A stretch of 24,000 nt of DNA from Methanococci archaeon (GCA_013153845.1 JAADDS010000013.1:1-24000), one strand, 5' to 3'; positions 1-8,839 are shown, counted from the first letter of the stretch. Notes: generated by a model not told the origin, from the sequence alone. Numbers and translations: made by a program.

Positions 1-57
1 ACTTGAGATCCCATGGGGCTTTGCCCCGCCTGGGTTCAAATCCCAGCCCCTGCGCCA
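1..57 (+). tRNA. tRNA-Ser(UGA), 5' part cut off by the window edge
   Basis: GC-rich island in AT-rich DNA. Anticodon loop C-T-TGA-G-A at 2-8, with a1 pairing t9. Long variable-arm hairpin GGGGC-TTT-GCCCC (15-27), typical of class II tRNAs. T arm CTGGG-TTCAAAT-CCCAG (30-46). Acceptor 3' strand 47-53, discriminator G54, encoded CCA 55-57. Confidence 0.85.
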
Positions 58-457
58 TACCTATTTTATCACAAAGAAGGTTAATTTGTTGCTCTTTTAG
101 GATTACACGATCTGTTGGATACATCCAACTGCTTTATAAAACCAACAGATTTTAAAGCTATTGGACTTAATAGATTTATTAATTATTTTAAATGGTCAAA
201 TTTATATAATAAAATAGTTTCATTAATTTTTATCTATAAGTTTAATATGAAACCTTTTAGCTGTTCTGTCAAAAATAAGATTTAATCATAACATTTGGAT
301 GTATACATAAATCAAATATAGAATAAGATTCATATGTGGATCATAGATATAGTGTAAATTAAGGGTTATGACAAATACATTTAACATAATAATATAACTA
401 CTCAAGAATAACTTATTTTAATAAATTATATTGATAATGCTTGTTTTGGTGAGGTTT

Positions 458-1333
458 ATGAGGGTTCTTCCTTTGGCATCTGAAAGTTTGGGAGTTAGAT
501 CGCTGGCAACTTATGTAAAAACCAAAGATGTCGGAATTTTAATAGATCCGGGAGTTGCAATAGCTCCGGATAGGTATGGATTAAAACCCACTGATTTAGA
601 ATTTAAAAAATTAAAAGAAATGAGGAAAAAAATAAACGAATATGCAAAAAAAGCAGATGTGATAACTATATCTCATTACCACTATGATCACTATACGCCT
701 TTTTTGGATGATATTTATTTAGATTCAAAGGATTATGCTAAGGAGTTATATAAGGACAAAATATTATTAATAAAGCATCCTACTGATCATATAAACAAGA
801 GTCAGATGCAAAGGGCAAGGAAATTTTTAGAATGTGTTAAAGATATTGCAAAAAGGATTGAATTTGCAGATAACAGGACATTTAAATTTGGTAATACAGA
901 AATAAAGTTTTCTCCTCCGTTTCCACATGGAAAGGATGATAAACTTGGATATGTGTTAATAACAACAGTTAAAGAAGGAAATTTTAAATTTATGCACACT
1001 TCCGACACTCAGGGGATAGTTTTTGATGAGATAAGAGATTACATAATAAAAGAAAAACCGAATTTAATAATTATAGGGGGCCCTCCAACATATTTAATGT
1101 ATAGATATGGAAAGAAAAATTTAGAAAAGACAAACGAAAACTTAAAATCCATAGTTGAAAATACAGGAGCTGAGATCATACTTGATCATCATTTATTAAG
1201 GGACAAAAAGTATAGGGAGAAGATAAATATAAAATTTAAAACGATAGCTGAATTTTTAGGAGAAAAAAACATTTTGTTGGAAGCATATCGAAAAGAACTC
1301 TCTCAGGGAAAGAAACTTGAAGATCTATTCTGA
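458..1333 (+). CDS. UPF0282-family metallo-beta-lactamase-fold protein (conserved archaeal hypothetical)
   Basis: N-terminus MRVLPLASESLGVRSLA and the HxHxDH motif (SHYHYDHY). ATG at 458 is preferred over the TTG at 431 because homolog-like sequence begins there. Confidence 0.7.
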   Translation: MRVLPLASESLGVRSLATYVKTKDVGILIDPGVAIAPDRYGLKPTDLEFKKLKEMRKKINEYAKKADVITISHYHYDHYTPFLDDIYLDSKDYAKELYKDKILLIKHPTDHINKSQMQRARKFLECVKDIAKRIEFADNRTFKFGNTEIKFSPPFPHGKDDKLGYVLITTVKEGNFKFMHTSDTQGIVFDEIRDYIIKEKPNLIIIGGPPTYLMYRYGKKNLEKTNENLKSIVENTGAEIILDHHLLRDKKYREKINIKFKTIAEFLGEKNILLEAYRKELSQGKKLEDLF

Positions 1334-1389
1334 TAAAATTTATAGTTATTTCTATAACTTATTCATTATTTTATAATTCATTAATTCAT

Positions 1390-1456
1390 TTTATCTTTCA
1401 ACACACTCTTCAACAAAATACTTATAAACCTTGTATCCATCTTCAGAAAGTTCTGG
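1390..1456. repeat. 67-bp direct repeat, left copy (att-like): orphan duplicate of the pdxT 3' end
   Basis: Identical base for base to 5050-5116 by direct comparison. On the minus strand it encodes [21 protein letters not shown]-stop with no gene body upstream of it. Confidence 0.95.
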
Positions 1457-1632
1457 TTAAACAATATATTTGTATGTTTTTTACTCTTAATCTATTCATA
1501 TATATTTTTGAATATACAAGCATAACTATTTAGCATCTTGATTTAGCATATTATTATGAATATTATACAGTATATACTATTATATGTTTATACTTAACTT
1601 TATATATTCGCACGCAAATTATATATACTTTA

Positions 1633-1648
1633 TACACAAATTTGTGTA
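1633..1648. promoter_or_regulatory. Perfect 16-bp palindrome TACACAAATTTGTGTA, candidate operator for the adjacent RHH protein
   Basis: Self-complementary by inspection. It lies between a TATA-like CTTTATAC (1628-1635) and the GGTG ribosome-binding site (1663-1666) of the RHH gene. Confidence 0.5.
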
Positions 1649-1672
1649 ATATATAAGTTATAGGTGTTATTC

Positions 1673-1885
1673 ATGAGAACAAATAAAGGAGAAGTAAAAC
1701 GAATACAGGTAACATTTACAAAAGAACAGTGGGAACTGATAGAGAAACTAAAAGGAGAATTGGGATTATCTGACTCTGAAGTCGTTAGAAATATTGTGTT
1801 AAATTGGTTAATTGAAAAATCGTTTATTTCAACGGCTTTAAAAAACAGATTATTTAGAGGAGATGATAATGGCAAAAAACATTAG
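1673..1885 (+). CDS. Ribbon-helix-helix (CopG/Arc-like) DNA-binding protein, putative controller of the cassette
   Basis: N-terminal beta-strand KRIQVTFT followed by two helices (KEQWELIEKLKGE, SDSEVVRNIVLNWL). GGTG sits 6 nt upstream of the ATG at 1673. The 3' end overlaps the methyltransferase start by 23 nt. Confidence 0.65.
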   Translation: MRTNKGEVKRIQVTFTKEQWELIEKLKGELGLSDSEVVRNIVLNWLIEKSFISTALKNRLFRGDDNGKKH

Positions 1886-3980
1886 AGAATATAAATATAT
1901 AGAAAAGAAATTTCCTATTGCAGAAATAAATAGAATATGTGTTTCTGAGAGAATTGCGTTAAAGCCAATATATATGATGCACAGGATATTTGCAAGAAGA
2001 ATCGGCTCCGTTTTCAGGACAATCATATTAGGGGCTTTAAAAGATGATTCTGTGAATATAATGGAAGAATTTTACAAATCACATAGAACTGACCCTGATA
2101 CAAATGATATAACAATATTAGACCCAATGTGTGGCGGTGGAACTACTCTTATTGAAGGATCACGATTAGGAGCCAAAGTTATTGGCTTTGAAATAAATCC
2201 AATACCTTGGTTTATTACAAAGTGTGAAATGAGTATTGTAGATGTAGATAAATTGATAGAAACATACAAAAACCTTGAAATCACTATTGGAAGGAAGATA
2301 AAGGAAATGTATAAAACAAAATGCCCACATTGTGGAGAAGAGGGGGAAATAATATACGTTTTTTGGATAAAAAAGGTTAAATGTCCAAATTGTAATAAAG
2401 AGATTCAGTTATTTAAGGACTATATTATAACTTATGACAAAAAAGAAGAAAACTTTTATCTTGTATGTCCTAATTGTTTAGATGTTTTTCATACAACTTC
2501 TTTGAAAGAAGAAACCACTTGCCCCACCTGTGGAAATGTGTTTAATCCAAAAAATGGAGTGGTTGTTAAAAATAACATAACCTGCCCCTATTGTAGCCAT
2601 AAATTCCGACTAATTGATGTATTAAAACAACAAGATGAGCCATTAGATGCGATTCCTTATGCTATTGATGGATTTTGCCACAATTGTGAAAGAAGGTTCA
2701 TTAAAAAATTTGATGAAAATGATTGGAAAATTCTCAAAAAAGTTGAAGAGGTCTTTGAAGAGAATAAATCAAAGTTGTTATTTCCAAGAGATGAAATTCC
2801 AGATGGCTATAATACAAATCAGATGAAAAAGCATAATTATAAATATTGGTATCAGATGTTCAACAAAAGACAACTACTTGCTTTATCACTACTTTTAGAA
2901 GAAATTAAAAAAATTGAACCAAAAGAGGTAAGAGATATATTCCTATTAACATTTTCAGAGACGTTGAGGGCAAATAACATGTTCTGCTATTACGATAAGA
3001 GATGGGCTAAACAGATCACTCCCTTATTTTCAAGAAAGGACTTTGCACCGGTTAATTTTCCTTTAGAGCAGAATGTCTGGGGAGGGAAATATGGCAGAGG
3101 ATCATTTAGACAAGTTTTTGAAAGAGTTCTAAAGGGAAAAGAATTTAATTTAAAACCTTATGAGCGACTATACACCAAAAAAGGCACAAAACGAATATAT
3201 TTGGATGAAAAAATCGGGGAAAAGGAATGGGCTGTGTATTGTATGGATGCCCAAAATTTAGATAAAATCGTAAAAGATAAGGTTGATTTAGTAATCACTG
3301 ATCCCCCATACTTTGATAGCATAAATTACTCTGAGGTATATGAATTCTTCTATGTGTGGTTGAAATTGGCTTTGGATTATGAATGCTTTAAAAATTCATC
3401 GGCAATAAATCAAAATGAAGCAATTGTAAATGAAATTCAAAATAAAGATAAAGAGCATTTCAAAAAAATATTAACCAACATATTTAGAAAGTCAGCAGAT
3501 GTGTTGAAAGATAATGGCATGTTTATATTTACATTCCATGATTTTAGTAAAGAGGCATGGGTTGATATGTTAGAAATTGTAAAAAATGCAGATCTATCTG
3601 TCAAAAAAATACACTTCTATCATGGAGAAAATGTTAGTGCTGGACATTTTGGAGGACAAAAAAGTGTATTTGATGGAATTTGGGTGTGTAAAAAAGAGGA
3701 AATGGAAAAGGTGTCAATATCCGTTGAAGAAAGTATAGATCTTGTTTGGAAGGAAATTAATCACCTAATAGATGAGATAAAAAAGGGTAAATACTTTAAG
3801 TTAGATGAAAATGATATAAAAATATTTGTGTATGGAAAATGTGTTGAGATTTATGAAAAATACAATTTAGGTATTTCCCTTAATGAATTTATTGATATTG
3901 CATTAAATAAAAAAGCAATTGAAAATGCATTAAATAATGTTAAAAAACCAAAGAAAGTTCTTATTACCGATTTTATTTAA
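1863..3980 (+). CDS. DNA methyltransferase (N6-adenine or N4-cytosine class), DUF1156/COG1743-like with Zn-ribbon inserts
   Basis: SAM motif I DPMCGGGTT (nt 2118-2147) followed by GFEINP. Catalytic motif IV DPPY (nt 3300-3311). N-terminal FPI..IN....ER...HRIFARR resembles DUF1156. Three CxxC...CxxC pairs span nt 2322-2687. The start may instead be the ATG at 1869, which is better spaced from GAGGAG. Confidence 0.85.
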   Translation: MIMAKNIREYKYIEKKFPIAEINRICVSERIALKPIYMMHRIFARRIGSVFRTIILGALKDDSVNIMEEFYKSHRTDPDTNDITILDPMCGGGTTLIEGSRLGAKVIGFEINPIPWFITKCEMSIVDVDKLIETYKNLEITIGRKIKEMYKTKCPHCGEEGEIIYVFWIKKVKCPNCNKEIQLFKDYIITYDKKEENFYLVCPNCLDVFHTTSLKEETTCPTCGNVFNPKNGVVVKNNITCPYCSHKFRLIDVLKQQDEPLDAIPYAIDGFCHNCERRFIKKFDENDWKILKKVEEVFEENKSKLLFPRDEIPDGYNTNQMKKHNYKYWYQMFNKRQLLALSLLLEEIKKIEPKEVRDIFLLTFSETLRANNMFCYYDKRWAKQITPLFSRKDFAPVNFPLEQNVWGGKYGRGSFRQVFERVLKGKEFNLKPYERLYTKKGTKRIYLDEKIGEKEWAVYCMDAQNLDKIVKDKVDLVITDPPYFDSINYSEVYEFFYVWLKLALDYECFKNSSAINQNEAIVNEIQNKDKEHFKKILTNIFRKSADVLKDNGMFIFTFHDFSKEAWVDMLEIVKNADLSVKKIHFYHGENVSAGHFGGQKSVFDGIWVCKKEEMEKVSISVEESIDLVWKEINHLIDEIKKGKYFKLDENDIKIFVYGKCVEIYEKYNLGISLNEFIDIALNKKAIENALNNVKKPKKVLITDFI

Positions 3981-5023
3981 AAAATATTTTTATTATCTAT
4001 TGTATATTGAAGACCTTTATTTTTTGATGTTATTGCGAGAGATATTGGCTTTTGTTTTATTGCTTCATCATAATATTTTTTCCTGGTTTCATTAATTTTT
4101 TTATCAAAGATAACTACTTCAAGTTTATCTTTTAAAACATTCCACTTATTAACATTAAAATTCCAATTATATCTGTTTGCAAGATGTTCTAAATAATTAG
4201 AAAGTTCATTGCCCACAGTTTTATCTAAATAATACTCATTTCCATATTTTTTAATATCCACCAACTCGCCTTTTTTATTCGATAACGTTATCTTACCTTT
4301 TCTATCCTTGTTTTGTGTAGTCCATAGTTTGTTTAACTCATCTAAAAAATCTTTTATTAGTTCTGTTAAGTCCTTTATAGATGTAGGATAATTTAATAGT
4401 ATTTCAAGTGGATGGTTTGAATCGTTATTTGTTAGATATTTCAACCAATCGAGACAATTTTCAGGATAATTAAATAAGTTTTTGAAAACACCGTCAATAA
4501 ATATTGAAGGGATTAATGCATCTTTTGGGCTAAAATTAAAAAATTTTTTGTTTGAATATAAAGAATAAACAAGAGATACAAGTAAATGGAACGTCCCAAA
4601 TGGATATTTTCTTTTAAATTTTTCAGGTTTGTTTGCACACATGCCTCTCCAATTATTTGGATTTATCATTTCATTTTGGATTGAGGTTATTAATTCTGGC
4701 GGATTATTCGAATCCCACAATAATATATGATGACCAATTGATTTTATTCCCTCTCTTAAAATTTCTACATCAATGAAGGCATATTTTTCTTTATTATTTT
4801 TGAAATCAATTGATTCCAAAGTAGTAAGAACTTTGCCATCATAAAATCCAACAACTTCCCATCCATAAACCTCATTTAAAAATAATGCGGAAATAAATCC
4901 ATCGGTATCTGGACTTATAATAATTCCTTTTATTTCATCTTTTTTATTATATAACCAAGAATAGCAATTACCTTTTTTGATATTTTCTACAACTTCTTTT
5001 ATTGAGTTGTAATTATGTAGCAT
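3977..5023 (-). CDS. Hypothetical 348-aa protein, candidate nuclease or effector partner of the methyltransferase
   Basis: Long ORF with an AGGTGG ribosome-binding site 7 nt upstream of the ATG. It is convergent with the methyltransferase, and the two stop codons overlap in TTAA (3977-3980). The N-terminus has DHH-like motifs (SPDTDGFISALFL, FIDVE, GHH). I recognise no family with confidence. Confidence 0.6.
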   Translation of the reverse strand: MLHNYNSIKEVVENIKKGNCYSWLYNKKDEIKGIIISPDTDGFISALFLNEVYGWEVVGFYDGKVLTTLESIDFKNNKEKYAFIDVEILREGIKSIGHHILLWDSNNPPELITSIQNEMINPNNWRGMCANKPEKFKRKYPFGTFHLLVSLVYSLYSNKKFFNFSPKDALIPSIFIDGVFKNLFNYPENCLDWLKYLTNNDSNHPLEILLNYPTSIKDLTELIKDFLDELNKLWTTQNKDRKGKITLSNKKGELVDIKKYGNEYYLDKTVGNELSNYLEHLANRYNWNFNVNKWNVLKDKLEVVIFDKKINETRKKYYDEAIKQKPISLAITSKNKGLQYTIDNKNIF

Positions 5024-5049
5024 AAATCTTCCACCTATTTCTATAATTA

Positions 5050-5116
5050 TTTATCTTTCAACACACTCTTCAACAAAATACTTATAAACCTTGTATCCAT
5101 CTTCAGAAAGTTCTGG
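5050..5116. repeat. 67-bp direct repeat, right copy (att-like), forming the functional 3' end of pdxT
   Basis: Identical to 1390-1456 and contiguous with the rest of the pdxT reading frame. Confidence 0.95.
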
Positions 5117-5611
5117 ATGGAATGATAGAGCCATGTATTTTCCTTGTTTAACACCAACAATTTTATCTCCATCTCTTGCTATAATTTCAACATCATCACT
5201 CAAAATCTTATCGACCACTGGGGCTCTTATAAATACTCCGTAAATTTTTCCAAGGCCTTTAAATTCAATTTCTTTTTCAAAGCTATCTACCTGCCTTCCA
5301 TAGGCATTTCTTTTAACTGTGAAATCCATCAATTCAAGTAAGATTTGATCAATGCCCGTTCCTTTTGATAATAAAACCATTCCTGCACAAGTTCCCAATA
5401 TTGGAATATCAAGTTTTCTTATTTTTTCTATGAAATTGTATTTTTTCATTAACTTTCCGATTGTTGTGCTCTCTCCTCCCGGAATTATAAGAGCATTTAT
5501 GCCTTCTAAATCTTCTGGTCTTTTTACTCTTTTTGGAATATATCCTGCCTTTTTTAGTGTCTCTTCATGTTCTTCTATATCTCCCTGGATAGATAAAACC
5601 CCAACAATCAT
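5051..5611 (-). CDS. pdxT: Pyridoxal 5'-phosphate synthase glutaminase subunit PdxT
   Basis: [16 protein letters not shown]-terminus, catalytic Cys in GTCAGM, and C-terminal FHPE triad motif. The 186-aa length is typical of the SNO/PdxT family. Confidence 0.9.
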
Positions 5612-5664
5612 TTTAATCCCTCATACATGCTTTTTTTATATTTTTATTTAATTTTTAATTTAAT

Positions 5665-6513
5665 TTAGATTATTTTAGCCCCGCAATTATTGGGTTTTGT
5701 TTTTATTACCTTTCCATATTTATTTAAGGTAGACATCACTTTTTCCACGTGATCATCTTCCACAATAGCAATGTAAGAAGGTCCGGTTCCAGATAAACCA
5801 GCAGTTAAAGCTCCCGATTTTAGTGCATCTATTGCAATATTTGTCGGAAAGTTAAGGGCTGAGGCGTAGAGTATACCATTTAAAAATAATGCTTTAAAAT
5901 AATTTCCTTTTAATGCCTCATTGTATGCCACGTCTACAAATTTCCCAATTGCTTTCATACTTTCAACATCGAGATTTTTTTCTAATTTTGGGATTAGCAC
6001 TAAAACATTAAGATTTTCATCCATATTATCTTTTTTTATAATTTCTCTTTTTATATTGTCGGTTATAGTTATTCCACCAAAATATGAGGCAGTAGCATCA
6101 TCGTAAGCTCCCGTAATGGTTAATCCTTCATCAAAACTTGATTTTATTCCAAGTTCTATTATTAACTCATCATCTATCTTTTCATTTAAAGCATCAAAGG
6201 TTGCTAAAACCACTGCGTTGGATGTCGCTGAACTACTACTTAATCCTGATCTTATGGGAATTTCTGTTTTTGTTTCAACATAAGCAGAATAATCTAAATT
6301 AAAATATTCAAGTGTATTCTTAACACATCGGATTATAAGATTCGGTTTTATGTTGGGATTATCTAACACTTTTCCCTCTATTTTTCCTTTTCCATCGTCT
6401 ATAAGCTTTACTTTTGCATAAACTTTCAAATCCAGACCAAAAGCAGATCCTTTTCCCATAGCTATCGCGTTTATTATAGTTCCAGATGCCAAAGCATATG
6501 CACTACCCTCCAT
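5665..6513 (-). CDS. aroK: Archaeal shikimate kinase (GHMP-kinase family)
   Basis: MEGSAYALASGTIINAIAMGKG start and the GHMP motif SGLSSSSA. ATG at 6513 is preferred to GTG at 6522 by comparison with my recollection of the Methanocaldococcus enzyme's N-terminus. Confidence 0.8.
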   Translation of the reverse strand: MEGSAYALASGTIINAIAMGKGSAFGLDLKVYAKVKLIDDGKGKIEGKVLDNPNIKPNLIIRCVKNTLEYFNLDYSAYVETKTEIPIRSGLSSSSATSNAVVLATFDALNEKIDDELIIELGIKSSFDEGLTITGAYDDATASYFGGITITDNIKREIIKKDNMDENLNVLVLIPKLEKNLDVESMKAIGKFVDVAYNEALKGNYFKALFLNGILYASALNFPTNIAIDALKSGALTAGLSGTGPSYIAIVEDDHVEKVMSTLNKYGKVIKTKPNNCGAKII

Positions 6514-6571
6514 ATAAATCACACTTTTATTTTTTAGTGTCTTGGATTTTTCTTATTCCCTATTTACTTGT

Positions 6572-7150
6572 TTAGTTGTTAGTCCAATTCCATAATCCTA
6601 CTCTATTCTCTTTTGCCTTTCTTTCAATATTTAAAAACTCATGTTCCAATTCAAACCTACTAACATAAACTCTTGCATATCCATACTTTAATAACTCTTC
6701 ATTAAAGTTTTCTAACTTTCCGCTATCGTTTATATAGATATACGCTAAATACCTTCCATATTTGTCTTTTTTTGGAGCTTCGTCATCAAAAACTATTATT
6801 ACTTCCTTATGATCTAACTCTCTCTTTGCAAAGTTTTTGGCTTTTTCTCCCCAATATTTTAGATAATTTATATCGGTTATTGGCGTTCCGTTTAGCAGAT
6901 AATACTCATCAGGATTGTTTTTCTTGTATGTCTCAGGGGTATCAACTCCCAGCAACCTAATCTTCCATAAATGACCATTAACTTCCACATAAATAGTATC
7001 CCCATCTACAACTTTAACAACCTTTCCATAGTAGTGTTCATGAGTATCAATAAATGGAGAAGAAACCATGTTGTTGTGTTGCTCAAAACATCCGCAAAAT
7101 AGCAAGTTAATTGAAATTATTAAAATTATGGGAATTATTTTTATCTTCAT
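6572..7150 (-). CDS. Secreted or membrane-anchored thermonuclease (staphylococcal nuclease-like)
   Basis: N-terminal hydrophobic signal ending in CGC. SNase signature VVKVVDGDTIYV...IRLLGVDTPE. Confidence 0.8.
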   Translation of the reverse strand: MKIKIIPIILIISINLLFCGCFEQHNNMVSSPFIDTHEHYYGKVVKVVDGDTIYVEVNGHLWKIRLLGVDTPETYKKNNPDEYYLLNGTPITDINYLKYWGEKAKNFAKRELDHKEVIIVFDDEAPKKDKYGRYLAYIYINDSGKLENFNEELLKYGYARVYVSRFELEHEFLNIERKAKENRVGLWNWTNN

Positions 7151-7228
7151 ACTTATCCCTTCTAATTCCGAATTTTTAATTTTTTAAATTTTTATCAATT
7201 TTTGTCTATTTATTATTTAACTTCTATT

Positions 7229-7948
7229 TTAACTTTTAGATATTTTTAATGCATCTTTTAAATTAATCATTCCCTTATAAAGTGCAGATCCAATAATAAC
7301 GCCCTCAACTCCGATCTCTTTGAGTTTTTTTATATCTTCGAGTGTTGTTATTCCACCAGAATAAATTATTGGAACTCCTACATTCTTTACTAATGCTTCA
7401 ATTATATCTGTTTTAATTCCACTCAACATTCCCTCAACGTCAACATTCGTAAATAAAATCCCTCCAACGTTTTTTTCATATTTTTTTGCAATCTCTATGG
7501 GATTTTTATTGATCGTCTCTTTCCATCCTTTTATAACAACTTTCCCCTGTTTACACTCAACAGCTAAAATTATTTTTTCTCTTTCAATTTCAGAAAGTAA
7601 TTCATTTAAAAAGGTCGGATCGGTTATTGCCTTAGTTCCTACTACGATTTTATCTACACCAATATCCATTAACCTCTTAGCAATTGTTAAACTTCTAATT
7701 CCTCCTCCAACTTCAACAGGAATATTAACCTCTTCAACGATCTTTTCAATAACATCAATATTACTTCCGCAACCTAATGCAGCATCAAGATCAACAATAT
7801 GTAAGTATTCTGCTCCATCATATTCCCATTTTTTAGCAACTCTTACAGGATCTTCGAGTTCTAAGTGTTTTTTAGTTGGATCTCCTTGAATTAATTGCAC
7901 ACATTTTTTATCTTTTAGATCAACAGCGGGAATTACGATCACACTCAA
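7229..7948 (-). CDS. hisA: ProFAR isomerase HisA (histidine biosynthesis)
   Basis: IPAVDLKDKKCVQLIQGD N-terminus, internal GGGIRS and C-terminal SGGI phosphate-binding motifs of the HisA (beta/alpha)8 barrel. Confidence 0.85.
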   Translation of the reverse strand: MSVIVIPAVDLKDKKCVQLIQGDPTKKHLELEDPVRVAKKWEYDGAEYLHIVDLDAALGCGSNIDVIEKIVEEVNIPVEVGGGIRSLTIAKRLMDIGVDKIVVGTKAITDPTFLNELLSEIEREKIILAVECKQGKVVIKGWKETINKNPIEIAKKYEKNVGGILFTNVDVEGMLSGIKTDIIEALVKNVGVPIIYSGGITTLEDIKKLKEIGVEGVIIGSALYKGMINLKDALKISKS

Positions 7949-8272
7949 TCACCTATTTAGATACTTTTTATATTTTTTTAAGTTATAACATCCATATCTT
8001 TAACTTTTATAATAAGTTTTATAAACAGTTTAATAATTAAGTAGTCATAATTTAGATTTTATAAAGATTTGTATGCCTAAGTATTTTGACAGTTAGGTTA
8101 TAACAACTTTGTATAAAAATTATTTAGTAAAAGATTATTAGAATGTTATAAAAATTATCCATAGTTGTCGCTTAGGAGAGTAATCTTACAAACAATTCGA
8201 TTAAATTACACAAACTTAAATATTTTAAGAAAAATAAAGATAAAAATAGAAGAAAAATAAAGAGGAGATCTT

Positions 8273-8839
8273 ATGTTCATTGTGTTTGAGGGCATAGATG
8301 GGAGTGGAAAGACCACAATCTCAAAAAAACTGGCTAAAAGTATAAACGCATTTTGGACTTATGAGCCATCAAATAGTGTTGTAGGGGACTTAATTAGGAA
8401 AATACTTTCTGGAAATGTCAAAGTTGATGATAAAACCTTGGCATTATTATTTTCAGCGGATAGGGTAGAGCATAGCAAGAAGATTAAAGAAGAGCTTAAA
8501 CATAGGAGTGTGGTGTGTGATAGATACCTCTACTCTTCAATTGCTTATCAAAGTGTTGCAGGTGTTGATGAGGACTTTATAAGGTCAATAAACAGATATG
8601 CATTGAAGCCAGATCTTGTTTTTTTGCTAATTTGTGATGTTGAAACTGCACTAAAACGAATAAACACAGAAGATATTTTTGAAAAAAAAGAATTTTTAGA
8701 AAAAGTGCAAGAGAAATACTTAGATCTTGCAAAAAAAGAAGGTTTTGTGATCATAGACACAACAGACAGAAGTGTTGAGGATGTTTATGATGAAGTTTTT
8801 AGCATACTAAAACCAATGATCACTCAACATAGTTTTTAA
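8273..8839 (+). CDS. tmk: Thymidylate kinase
   Basis: P-loop FEGIDGSGKTT and DRY motif (CDRYLYSS). AGAGGAG ribosome-binding site upstream. Confidence 0.85.
   Translation: MFIVFEGIDGSGKTTISKKLAKSINAFWTYEPSNSVVGDLIRKILSGNVKVDDKTLALLFSADRVEHSKKIKEELKHRSVVCDRYLYSSIAYQSVAGVDEDFIRSINRYALKPDLVFLLICDVETALKRINTEDIFEKKEFLEKVQEKYLDLAKKEGFVIIDTTDRSVEDVYDEVFSILKPMITQHSF

What the first reader, a model, noticed from the sequence alone, without database searches (positions are those of the whole stretch)
1457..5049. The cassette encodes no recognisable integrase, transposase or replication protein
Between the repeats there are only three ORFs over 60 aa that are not antisense shadows: the RHH protein, the methyltransferase and the 348-aa orphan. 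None shows tyrosine-recombinase (R..HxxR..Y), serine-recombinase or obvious DDE signatures by eye. Either the element is mobilised in trans by an integrase encoded elsewhere (provirus or plasmid), or the 348-aa protein is a new kind of recombinase, or the cassette arrived by homologous recombination through the 67-bp homology. An integrase-less satellite element carrying a defence module would be a notable mobility strategy.
Basis: inference. Interest (0 to 1): 0.7.

Follow-up and report, generated by a model that had tools for sequence, protein, structure and literature searches.

The report
Recombinase-free restriction-modification cassette with target duplication
The 3.6-kb insert is a restriction-modification (DNA defence) gene trio that sits in a vent archaeon's chromosome between two copies of a duplicated 67-bp piece of its target; it has no recombinase of its own, a way of moving already described for such systems in bacteria but still unexplained.

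Summary
Between perfect 67-bp direct repeats (1390-1456, 5050-5116) lie only a CopG/RHH gene, a 705-aa N6/N4 DNA methyltransferase and a 348-aa protein. No profile or fold search finds an integrase, transposase or replication protein.

The 348-aa protein is not an orphan. It has more than 120 homologues in archaea and bacteria. In all 11 distinct neighbourhoods examined it lies next to a PF01555 methyltransferase (one gene between them in L030), so it is most likely the restriction endonuclease of a new family.

The cassette is therefore the defence module itself, a Type II restriction-modification (R-M) unit, not a satellite carrying one.

Near-identical strains have the empty site with exactly one 67-mer. 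Methanocaldococcus vulcanius M7 has the cassette at the same site, with a 65-bp repeat in a shifted register. Related units at two other loci are bracketed by different repeats of 42 and 32 nt.

This matches "R-M insertion with long target duplication" (Nobusato 2000; Furuta 2010), known in bacteria. I found no archaeal case in the literature searched.

Today's presence/absence is best explained by host homologous recombination between the repeats.

Verdict: new member of a known kind; moderate interest. A weak DHH/RecJ-like resemblance of the endonuclease candidate is an unproven lead.

The parts
431..1333 (+). Left flanking host gene (UPF0282 MBL-fold hydrolase). It is the direct neighbour of pdxT in the empty-site strains.
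   Evidence: Pfam Lactamase_B_2. A 100% identical protein lies in L025/L026, where pdxT follows after 57 nt.
1390..1456 (.). Left copy of the 67-bp target duplication: a non-functional duplicate of the pdxT 3' end.
   Evidence: 100% identical to 5050-5116. It translates on the minus strand to [21 protein letters not shown]. Only one copy is present in L025/L026.
1457..1611 (.). Non-coding left end of the insert. It is shared with M. vulcanius (about 88% identity) but not with the related unit at another locus (L033).
   Evidence: homology with L033 starts at window position 1612.
1612..1663 (+). Probable promoter/operator of the RHH-methyltransferase operon: a TATA-like AAATTATATATAC followed by a perfect 16-nt palindrome TACACAAATTTGTGTA (1633-1648).
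   Evidence: The palindrome was found in the window and at the same place in M. vulcanius (L027 9170-9185). Its role as an operator is inferred.
1664..1885 (+). CopG/RHH DNA-binding protein (annotated start 1676, 70 aa), the putative controller of the unit. Its gene overlaps the methyltransferase gene by 23 nt.
   Evidence: Weak RHH_1 and ParG hits (E 0.003-0.004). NCBI names the identical-cluster proteins CopG family regulators. Conserved in L027 and L033.
1863..3980 (+). 705-aa DNA methyltransferase with Zn-ribbon inserts (a GGG motif near the N-terminus and DPPY in the C-terminal half).
   Evidence: PF01555 N6_N4_Mtase and PF01170. phrog_10183 'DNA methyltransferase' 2e-117. dN/dS 0.08-0.13. 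Scores are far below the cut-offs for the DUF1156 antiphage family (127 vs 1000 bits).
3977..5023 (-). 348-aa predicted restriction endonuclease of an undescribed family. It is convergent with the methyltransferase gene, with a 4-nt overlap.
   Evidence: 124 homologues, none named and none with a Pfam domain. Beside a PF01555 methyltransferase in all 11 neighbourhoods examined (one gene in between in L030). Invariant D39, D41, D62, K64, D85, E87, H99, H146, D177. dN/dS 0.09-0.13. Model pLDDT 95.7.
5024..5049 (.). Right end of the insert. Its last 14 nt (5036-5049, TATTTCTATAATTA) look like a remnant of a duplicated pdxT-downstream spacer.
   Evidence: 11 of 14 identical to the M. vulcanius spacer, which in that genome is part of the repeat.
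5050..5116 (.). Right copy of the 67-bp duplication: the functional 3' end of pdxT.
5051..5611 (-). Target gene pdxT (glutamine amidotransferase subunit of PLP synthase). It stays intact, and the endonuclease candidate gene lies 27 nt downstream in the same orientation.
   Evidence: PF01174 SNO 1.2e-76; ORF coordinates.

Best explanation
The cassette is a complete, self-contained Type II restriction-modification gene complex. It consists of a CopG/RHH regulator, a methyltransferase and a convergent 348-aa restriction endonuclease of a new family.

It lies at the 3' end of pdxT, bracketed by a duplicated piece of the target. The duplicate is 67 bp here and was probably at least 81 bp originally. 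This is the pattern called 'R-M insertion with long target duplication'.

Units of this class encode no recombinase. The original insertion is thought to be made by host repair of broken DNA, with fill-in producing the duplication. That step is inferred, and its mechanism is unknown in the field.

Once the repeats exist, the host's homologous recombination works on them. It deletes the unit precisely, which gives the empty alleles with one 67-mer. It keeps the two copies identical (concerted evolution). It may also re-insert an excised circle or swap filled and empty alleles between strains.

Shown here: the gene content, the precise insertion/deletion, occupancy of the same site in a sister species, different repeats around related units at other loci, and purifying selection. 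Inferred: the endonuclease activity, the way the duplication arose and the direction of the recent event.
For: (1) Gene content. The methyltransferase is clear. The 348-aa family lies next to PF01555 methyltransferases of at least four architectures in all 11 distinct neighbourhoods examined, directly except in L030, where a second family member lies between. These span Methanocaldococcus, Aenigmatarchaeota, Altiarchaeales, candidate-phyla-radiation (CPR) bacteria, a further bacterial contig (L028) and IMG/VR contigs. In L028 it sits directly behind an HTH_3 controller-like gene. Its invariant acidic, His and Lys residues fit a metal-dependent nuclease.

(2) Empty site. L025 and L026 are 99.3-99.9% identical to the window's flanks and carry exactly one 67-mer between the MBL gene and pdxT.

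(3) Sister species. M. vulcanius M7 (Metvu_1018-1020) has the unit at the same site. Its repeat is 65 nt, starts 14 nt further out and ends 16 nt earlier.

(4) Concerted evolution. The 51-nt shared core differs at 3 positions between the two genomes, yet both copies within each genome are identical.

(5) Other loci. A unit 85-87% identical sits at a different locus (L033, L032, L037), bracketed by an imperfect 42-nt repeat whose right copy is again the 3' end of the upstream gene (9 of 1000 shuffles reach the score). A distant bacterial controller-endonuclease-methyltransferase unit (L028) is bracketed exactly by a 32-nt repeat with 17 nt perfect (1 of 2000 shuffles).

(6) Criteria. All the Furuta 2010 criteria are met apart from biochemical proof of the R gene, and that paper stresses the absence of other mobile elements.

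(7) Selection. dN/dS is 0.08-0.13 for both enzymes.
Against: The endonuclease assignment rests on gene neighbourhood and conserved residues only. No characterised homologue exists, and no nuclease fold is significantly matched.

The direction of the recent event, deletion versus insertion, is not proven. The M. vulcanius copy argues for ancestral presence. However, synonymous divergence of the two enzyme genes (dS 0.135 and 0.144; the 70-codon RHH gene gives 0.05) is lower than in three of four flanking genes (0.25-0.43), which would also fit later spread between lineages.

No empty site was found for the second and third loci. The L028 repeat (17-32 nt) is at or below the 30-bp criterion.

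Six other family loci show no flanking repeat of at least 28 nt.
Confidence: 0.65

Rival explanations
1. The cassette is a non-autonomous integrative element (a cis-mobilisable, integrase-less cassette). Its 67-bp repeats would be attL and attR, recombined by a site-specific integrase encoded elsewhere, on a provirus, plasmid or chromosome.
For: Perfect direct repeats at the 3' end of a gene and a precise empty site are what site-specific integration leaves. The same site is occupied in two lineages. A virus-like region lies a few hundred bp upstream of the MBL gene in relatives.
Against: There is no integrase in the window or in the 8 kb fetched upstream. The virus-like region is present in both empty and filled genomes. 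The repeat core is absent from IMG/VR, GenBank phages and PLSDB plasmids, including pMETVU01. Related units at other loci are bracketed by unrelated repeats of different length. The repeat register differs between the window and M. vulcanius.
Confidence: 0.1
2. The 348-aa protein is itself a new kind of recombinase or transposase-like nuclease that inserts the cassette. For example, it could make widely staggered cuts whose repair yields the long duplication.
For: It is a predicted metal-dependent phosphoesterase with no assigned family. Furuta 2010 proposes that DNA breakage by the restriction enzyme may underlie this kind of insertion. Three units of this family are repeat-bracketed.
Against: No similarity to tyrosine or serine recombinases, DDE/RNase H, HUH or any transposase by sequence or fold. 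There are no terminal inverted repeats. The family is strictly coupled to methyltransferases, also at loci without flanking repeats, as expected for a restriction enzyme.
Confidence: 0.07
3. Pure homology-driven history: the unit never 'inserted' by a special mechanism in this lineage. A circular or linear fragment that already carried a piece of the pdxT 3' end, picked up in an earlier host, entered by a Campbell-type single crossover or by allelic replacement through flanking homology. The repeat would simply be the homologous segment.
For: Both repeat copies carry the lineage's own variants. Cassette dS is lower than in most flanks, and dS along the flanks is mosaic (0.07-0.43), so recombination between lineages occurs. 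The 155-nt non-coding left end (1457-1611) travels with the unit in this lineage but not in L033.
Against: It only moves the origin of the duplication back one step. It does not explain repeats of unrelated sequence at two other loci. The flanks next to the junctions show no imported tract: 2 SNPs in 1456 nt on the left, and none for 1.6 kb on the right apart from one indel.
Confidence: 0.15

Closest known systems
R-M gene complexes inserted with a long target duplication (Nobusato, Uchiyama, Ohashi, Kobayashi 2000, Gene 259:99; Furuta, Abe, Kobayashi 2010, NAR 38:2428, PMC2853133)
   Same: An R-M unit alone, less than 20 kb, with no mobility gene. It is flanked by direct repeats longer than 30 bp that align to a single copy in a related genome. 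Repeat length varies between events.
   Different: The host is an archaeon (Methanocaldococcus); the cases in the passages of those papers that I read are bacterial. The unit includes an RHH regulator and an endonuclease candidate of an undescribed family. The two repeat copies show concerted evolution, and a sister species has the repeat in a shifted register.
Type II R-M systems with a controller (C) protein, for example PvuII, BamHI and Esp1396I (from my own knowledge)
   Same: A small DNA-binding protein gene with a palindromic operator-like site upstream, a methyltransferase and a convergent endonuclease gene. A relative (L028) has a classical HTH_3 gene directly in front of the endonuclease homologue.
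   Different: Here the small protein is RHH/CopG rather than HTH, and it precedes the methyltransferase gene rather than the endonuclease gene. Control has not been tested.
R.PabI, a restriction enzyme with a new fold found through the mobility of its R-M unit in Pyrococcus (PMC1874622; Chinen 2000)
   Same: An archaeal hyperthermophile R-M unit recognised by genome comparison, with an endonuclease lacking any known nuclease signature.
   Different: No sequence or fold relation to PabI was seen. Activity is not demonstrated here.
DHH/DHHA1 phosphoesterases (RecJ, Cdc45/GAN, NrnA, GdpP)
   Same: Top-ranked Foldseek hits in both PDB and BFVD. The order of conserved motifs matches: beta-strand then PDxDG, hydrophobic strand then D, strand then HH, helix with DG.
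   Different: No match is significant (best E 5e-3, TM at most 0.39). hhalign aligns motif I only (P 0.42). Motif III is GHH rather than DHH. There is no DHHA1 domain. DHH enzymes are exonucleases or phosphodiesterases, not sequence-specific endonucleases.
Integrase-less cis-mobilisable elements (CIMEs) flanked by att sites
   Same: Direct repeats at the 3' end of a gene, and no integrase inside.
   Different: No cognate integrase or third att copy was found. Related units carry unrelated repeats.

Membership tests
R-M insertion with long target duplication (criteria of Furuta et al. 2010) | The inserted segment contains both M and R gene homologues | tested here: inconclusive
   The M gene is clear (PF01555, phrog_10183 2e-117). 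The R gene is assigned only by its position beside methyltransferases in all 11 neighbourhoods examined and by its conserved catalytic-type residues. There is no characterised homologue.
R-M insertion with long target duplication (criteria of Furuta et al. 2010) | Insert shorter than 20 kb | tested here: met
   3593 bp between the repeats; the insertion/deletion is 3660 bp.
R-M insertion with long target duplication (criteria of Furuta et al. 2010) | Flanking direct repeat longer than 30 bp that aligns with a single copy at the empty locus of a related genome | tested here: met
   67/67 nt. L025 and L026 have one copy, with flanks 99.3-99.9% identical.
R-M insertion with long target duplication (criteria of Furuta et al. 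2010) | No other mobile-element genes in or next to the insert | tested here: met
   No integrase, transposase or Rep in the cassette or the window. No terminal inverted repeats.
Type II R-M system | Methyltransferase with SAM-binding and DPPY catalytic motifs | tested here: met
   The translation shows ...DPMCGGGTT... and ...VITDPPYFD.... PF01555 covers residues 474-625 and PF01170 residues 81-107.
Type II R-M system | Cognate site-specific endonuclease activity blocked by the methylation | not testable with these tools
   Needs biochemistry or a methylome.
Tyrosine or serine recombinases, DDE/RNase H transposases, HUH/Rep | A recognisable catalytic domain in any cassette protein | tested here: not met
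   No hits in Pfam, NCBIfam, PHROGs or PADLOC at E up to 1. Foldseek of a pLDDT 95.7 model gave no such fold among the listed matches.
DHH phosphoesterase superfamily (348-aa protein) | Significant sequence-profile or fold match to the DHH domain with motifs I-IV in register | tested here: inconclusive
Site-specific integrative element mobilised in trans | The same att core at independent insertions, and a cognate integrase with a matching attP | tested here: not met
   L033 and L028 units carry unrelated repeats. The core is absent from IMG/VR, phages and plasmids. The whole M. vulcanius chromosome could not be scanned.
DUF1156 antiphage / BREX PglX methyltransferase systems | Full-length match above the curated cut-off, with partner genes | tested here: not met
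   NF042963 scored 127 bits against a cut-off of 1000. PADLOC PglXI and DUF1156_MTase hits are partial only. No partner genes are present.

The most novel reading that the evidence does not exclude
The 348-aa family (over 300 clusters at 50% identity, no Pfam family, spread across archaea, CPR bacteria and viral contigs) may be a sixth catalytic class of restriction endonuclease, built on a DHH/RecJ-like phosphoesterase core. Its mode of cutting could be what produces the long, variable target duplications that let R-M units move without a recombinase.
Probability: 0.15. Interest if true: 0.75.

Novelty: new member of a known kind. Interest (0 to 1): 0.45.

Why it matters
How R-M systems insert with long target duplications has been an open question since 2000, and no experimental system exists for it.

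This locus offers natural filled and empty alleles at more than 99% flank identity. It is also present in a cultured strain, M. vulcanius M7 (Metvu_1018-1020). A second insertion site of the same unit is known, and a distant relative is likewise bracketed by repeats. Excision, amplification and re-insertion could therefore be tested directly.

It extends the phenomenon to Archaea, as far as the literature searched here shows.

It also flags a widespread, unannotated candidate restriction-enzyme family that current defence-system and Pfam libraries miss.

Tried and rejected
- **Synteny for the empty site.** A PdxT-based scan of GTDB genomes found Methanocaldococcus relatives at up to 84% identity, but none shares the MBL-pdxT-shikimate kinase order. 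The empty and filled sites were found instead through homologues of the MBL protein.
- **Exact-core scans.** The 30-nt repeat core matched only the L025 contig in JGI metagenomes and nothing in IMG/VR.
- **Plasmids and phages.** Cassette DNA and the 348-aa protein gave no match in PLSDB plasmids or GenBank phages.
- **N-terminal domain alone.** Its model was worse (pLDDT 79, with the GHH loop below 50) and gave no significant match.
- **Further family searches.** Pfam on the family consensus and a family profile against PDB sequences found nothing.
- **DHH profile comparison.** hhalign against a small NrnA/TmPDE alignment, built from PDB sequences recovered, was not significant.
- **PD-(D/E)XK reading.** P38-D39...D62-G-K64 fits the motif pattern. 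I rejected it as unsupported because a helix lies between the two elements and no PD-(D/E)XK fold hit appeared.
- **Second-site empty allele.** The only exact match to the flanking gene (L037) was the other half of the filled site.
- **Other scans.** Rfam and terminal-inverted-repeat searches were negative. The sigma-70 promoter scan is not applicable to an archaeon.
Full report
**1. Checking the observation**

The window carries a perfect 67-nt direct repeat at 1390-1456 and 5050-5116. The right copy is the 3' end of pdxT (5051-5611, minus strand; PF01174 SNO, 1.2e-76). The left copy is an orphan duplicate of the last 21 codons, preceded by a stop codon.

Between the repeats the ORF list shows three genes:
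- a 73-aa RHH/CopG protein (1664-1885; weak RHH_1 and ParG hits; NCBI calls the cluster CopG);
- a 705-aa DNA methyltransferase (1863-3980; PF01555, PF01170, phrog_10183 2e-117);
- a 348-aa protein on the other strand (3977-5023).

All other ORFs are antisense shadows without family hits.

None of Pfam, NCBIfam, PHROGs, PADLOC or PDB sequence searches finds an integrase, transposase, relaxase or replication protein. The remaining 19 kb of the window holds housekeeping genes and no tRNA. There are no terminal inverted repeats and no Rfam match.

**2. The 348-aa protein is not an orphan and does not look like a recombinase**

It has 124 homologues at E below 1e-3 in the 90%-identity clusters and 334 clusters in the 50% library. 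All are unnamed and none has a Pfam domain. They come from Methanococci, Aenigmatarchaeota, Altiarchaeales, Minisyncoccia, Wildermuthbacteria and unbinned metagenomes.

I examined 11 distinct neighbourhoods. In every one the gene lies beside a PF01555 N6/N4 methyltransferase; in nine the two genes are directly adjacent and convergent. In L030 a second family member lies between them. For L001 the 700-aa neighbour has only faint precomputed Pfam hits, but it is 68% identical to the window's methyltransferase. The methyltransferase comes in at least four architectures:
- the 700-aa Zn-ribbon kind (window, M. vulcanius, L001, L033);
- LexA_DNA_bind plus Peptidase_S24 plus methyltransferase (L002-L007);
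- LexA_DNA_bind plus methyltransferase (L029);
- plain 270-295-aa enzymes (the P0099 contig, L028, L030, L035, L036).

In L028 an 88-aa HTH_3 gene overlaps the start of the homologue, which is the classical controller-then-endonuclease arrangement.

The alignment has invariant D39, D41, D62, K64, D85, E87, H99, H146 and D177. The N-terminal 200 residues are much more widely conserved than the C-terminal 110, as expected for a catalytic core joined to a variable DNA-recognition domain. dN/dS is 0.09-0.13.

I conclude, by inference from context, that it is the restriction endonuclease of the unit.

**3. Fold of the 348-aa protein**

AlphaFold gives a very confident model (pLDDT 95.7, pTM 0.94). 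Foldseek against PDB and BFVD gives no match below E 1e-3, and no recombinase or transposase fold among the listed matches.

In both libraries the top of the list is nevertheless dominated by DHH phosphoesterases: PggH, RecJ, RecJ-Cdc45, NrnA, CDC45, GdpP, a phage 'repair exonuclease' at E 5e-3 and phage RecJ at 7.5e-3.

The order of the conserved motifs is a strand followed by PDxDG, a strand followed by D, a strand followed by HH, and a helix with DG. By my reading this parallels DHH motifs I-IV.

The statistical support is missing:
- TM-scores are at most 0.39;
- the N-domain model alone is worse and gives nothing significant;
- Pfam DHH touches 1 of 42 members at E 0.047;
- hhalign against four NrnA/TmPDE sequences aligns motif I only, with P 0.42.

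**4. The cassette is a real insertion/deletion**

Homologues of the left flanking MBL protein led to two contigs, L025 (JGI Ga0256843_1000096, 73.8 kb) and L026 (Logan SRR8439170). Both are 99.3-99.9% identical to the window on both sides. In both, the MBL gene is followed directly by pdxT, with exactly one copy of the 67-mer. The difference is a clean 3660-bp insertion/deletion.

The immediate flanks show no imported tract. There are two SNPs in 1456 nt on the left. On the right there are none for 1.6 kb apart from one AT-rich indel.

**5. The same site is occupied in a cultured sister species**

Methanocaldococcus vulcanius M7 (CP001787.1; Metvu_1018, Metvu_1019 and Metvu_1020) has the same three genes between the MBL gene and pdxT.

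Its repeat is 65 nt, perfect, and in a shifted register. It starts 14 nt further out, in the spacer beyond the pdxT stop codon, and ends 16 nt earlier. The window's insert still ends with a 14-nt sequence that is 11/14 identical to that spacer. The original duplication therefore probably spanned at least 81 nt.

Across the 51 nt shared by both repeats, the two genomes differ at three positions, yet within each genome the two copies are identical. Either gene conversion homogenises the copies, or the unit has been re-inserted through homology in each lineage.

Nucleotide identity between the two genomes is 95.8% for the cassette and 90.9% and 93.7% for the flanks. For the two enzyme genes dS is 0.135 and 0.144 (0.05 for the 70-codon RHH gene). 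For pdxT, SNase, MBL and shikimate kinase dS is 0.25, 0.38, 0.43 and 0.07. The region is mosaic, and the cassette may be somewhat younger than the species split.

The simplest reading is ancestral presence with recent precise loss in the L025/L026 lineage by recombination between the repeats. Re-acquisition by homologous exchange cannot be excluded.

**6. Related units elsewhere are also bracketed by repeats, of different sequence**

A unit 85-87% identical over window positions 1612-4989 lies at another locus (L033 from ENA; L032 and L037 from JGI 3300026488). That stretch runs from the operon promoter into the first codons of the endonuclease gene. The unit sits between the 3' end of an unrelated gene and a DUF2076 gene.

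It is flanked by an imperfect 42-nt direct repeat (33/42 identical). The local alignment score is 22, against 14.4 +/- 2.3 in shuffles, and 9 of 1000 shuffles reach it. The right copy is again the end of the upstream gene, and the endonuclease gene again lies just downstream of that gene in the same orientation.

A distant controller-endonuclease-methyltransferase unit in a bacterial contig (L028) is bracketed exactly by a 32-nt repeat whose first 17 nt are perfect. Only 1 of 2000 shuffles reaches its score.

Six other loci show no flanking repeat of at least 28 nt.

The unit as a whole has crossed phyla: the Aenigmatarchaeota copy (L001) is 68% and 57% identical in the methyltransferase and endonuclease candidate, with the same overlapping convergent layout.

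**7. Comparison with what is known**

Nobusato et al. [quoted passage not shown] The criteria are R and M genes in the insert, an insert under 20 kb and a duplication over 30 bp.

They found this for Type I-IV systems in several bacterial groups. They proposed that DNA breakage by the restriction enzyme is involved, and that the repeats allow amplification and release. No mechanism has been demonstrated.

The present locus meets every criterion except biochemical proof of the R gene. I found no archaeal example in the literature searches.

The in-trans integrase model is disfavoured for four reasons:
- the repeats differ between loci;
- the repeat register is shifted between the window and M. 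vulcanius;
- the core is absent from IMG/VR, phages and plasmids, including pMETVU01;
- the virus-like region upstream of the MBL gene is present in both filled and empty genomes.

**8. How it most likely works**

Shown here:
- an RHH-methyltransferase operon and a convergent endonuclease candidate gene, all under purifying selection;
- a conserved 16-nt palindrome (1633-1648) between a TATA-like element and the RHH start codon, a likely operator;
- the endonuclease gene placed 27 nt downstream of pdxT in the same orientation.

Inferred:
- the unit entered by host repair of a break, with fill-in that duplicated at least 67-81 bp of the target;
- host homologous recombination between the repeats now deletes it precisely, homogenises the copies, and may re-insert a circle or exchange alleles between strains.

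**9. Verdict**

The finding is a new, archaeal member of a known kind of R-M mobility, and it carries a candidate new restriction-enzyme family. Interest is moderate (0.45). The more novel reading, a DHH-like restriction enzyme whose cutting underlies the long duplications, remains possible but unproven.

Noticed in passing
L025 1-7664 and L027 1-7300 (upstream of the MBL gene); window 1-430 is its last stretch at most: About 7.6 kb of small unannotated ORFs on both strands. They include a 222-aa DUF87/FtsK-type ATPase (phrog_2666 'terminase large subunit', 8e-21), a 327-aa Gly/Asp-repeat protein and a 287-aa protein. It looks like an integrated virus- or plasmid-like element. It is present in both cassette-free and cassette-bearing genomes. 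No integrase was seen in the stretch fetched.
   Followed up: partly
L002-L007 (e.g. L006 9018-10472) and L029 6983-8056: The methyltransferase partners of the 348-aa family in CPR-type bacteria are fused to a LexA DNA-binding domain, and in L002-L007 also to a Peptidase_S24 self-cleavage domain. That makes an R-M methyltransferase built on a complete LexA-like repressor, which might link the system to DNA damage.
   Followed up: no
L030 5244-7208 and 8978-9388: Two tandem paralogues of the 348-aa family (351 and 300 aa, sharing the C-terminal ...IEYTLEEPDKLP) precede the methyltransferase. A CRISPR-like array (36-nt repeat GTCCGAAAGGACAGCCCTGCTGGTAGGGACTGAAAC) lies about 0.9 kb away.
   Followed up: no
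window 1374-1389: An 8-nt tandem duplication (TAATTCAT twice) lies directly left of the left repeat. It is also present in the empty-site strains and absent in M. vulcanius. It explains why the repeat no longer extends into the spacer here.
   Followed up: partly
window 5651 (pdxT-shikimate kinase spacer): A 26-nt AT-rich insertion/deletion relative to L025/L026 is the only difference within 1.6 kb to the right of the cassette.
   Followed up: no
window 431-7150 compared with L027: Synonymous divergence from M. vulcanius is strongly uneven between neighbouring genes: shikimate kinase 0.07, pdxT 0.25, SNase 0.38, MBL 0.43. This suggests a mosaic of recombination tracts between Methanocaldococcus lineages.
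   Followed up: partly
L009 about 6560-8400: In Methanocaldococcus sp. 16A the region downstream of pdxT translates into reiterated peptide units, which looks like a CRISPR-type array. Gene order around pdxT is not conserved in the other Methanocaldococcus genomes fetched (L008-L012).
   Followed up: no
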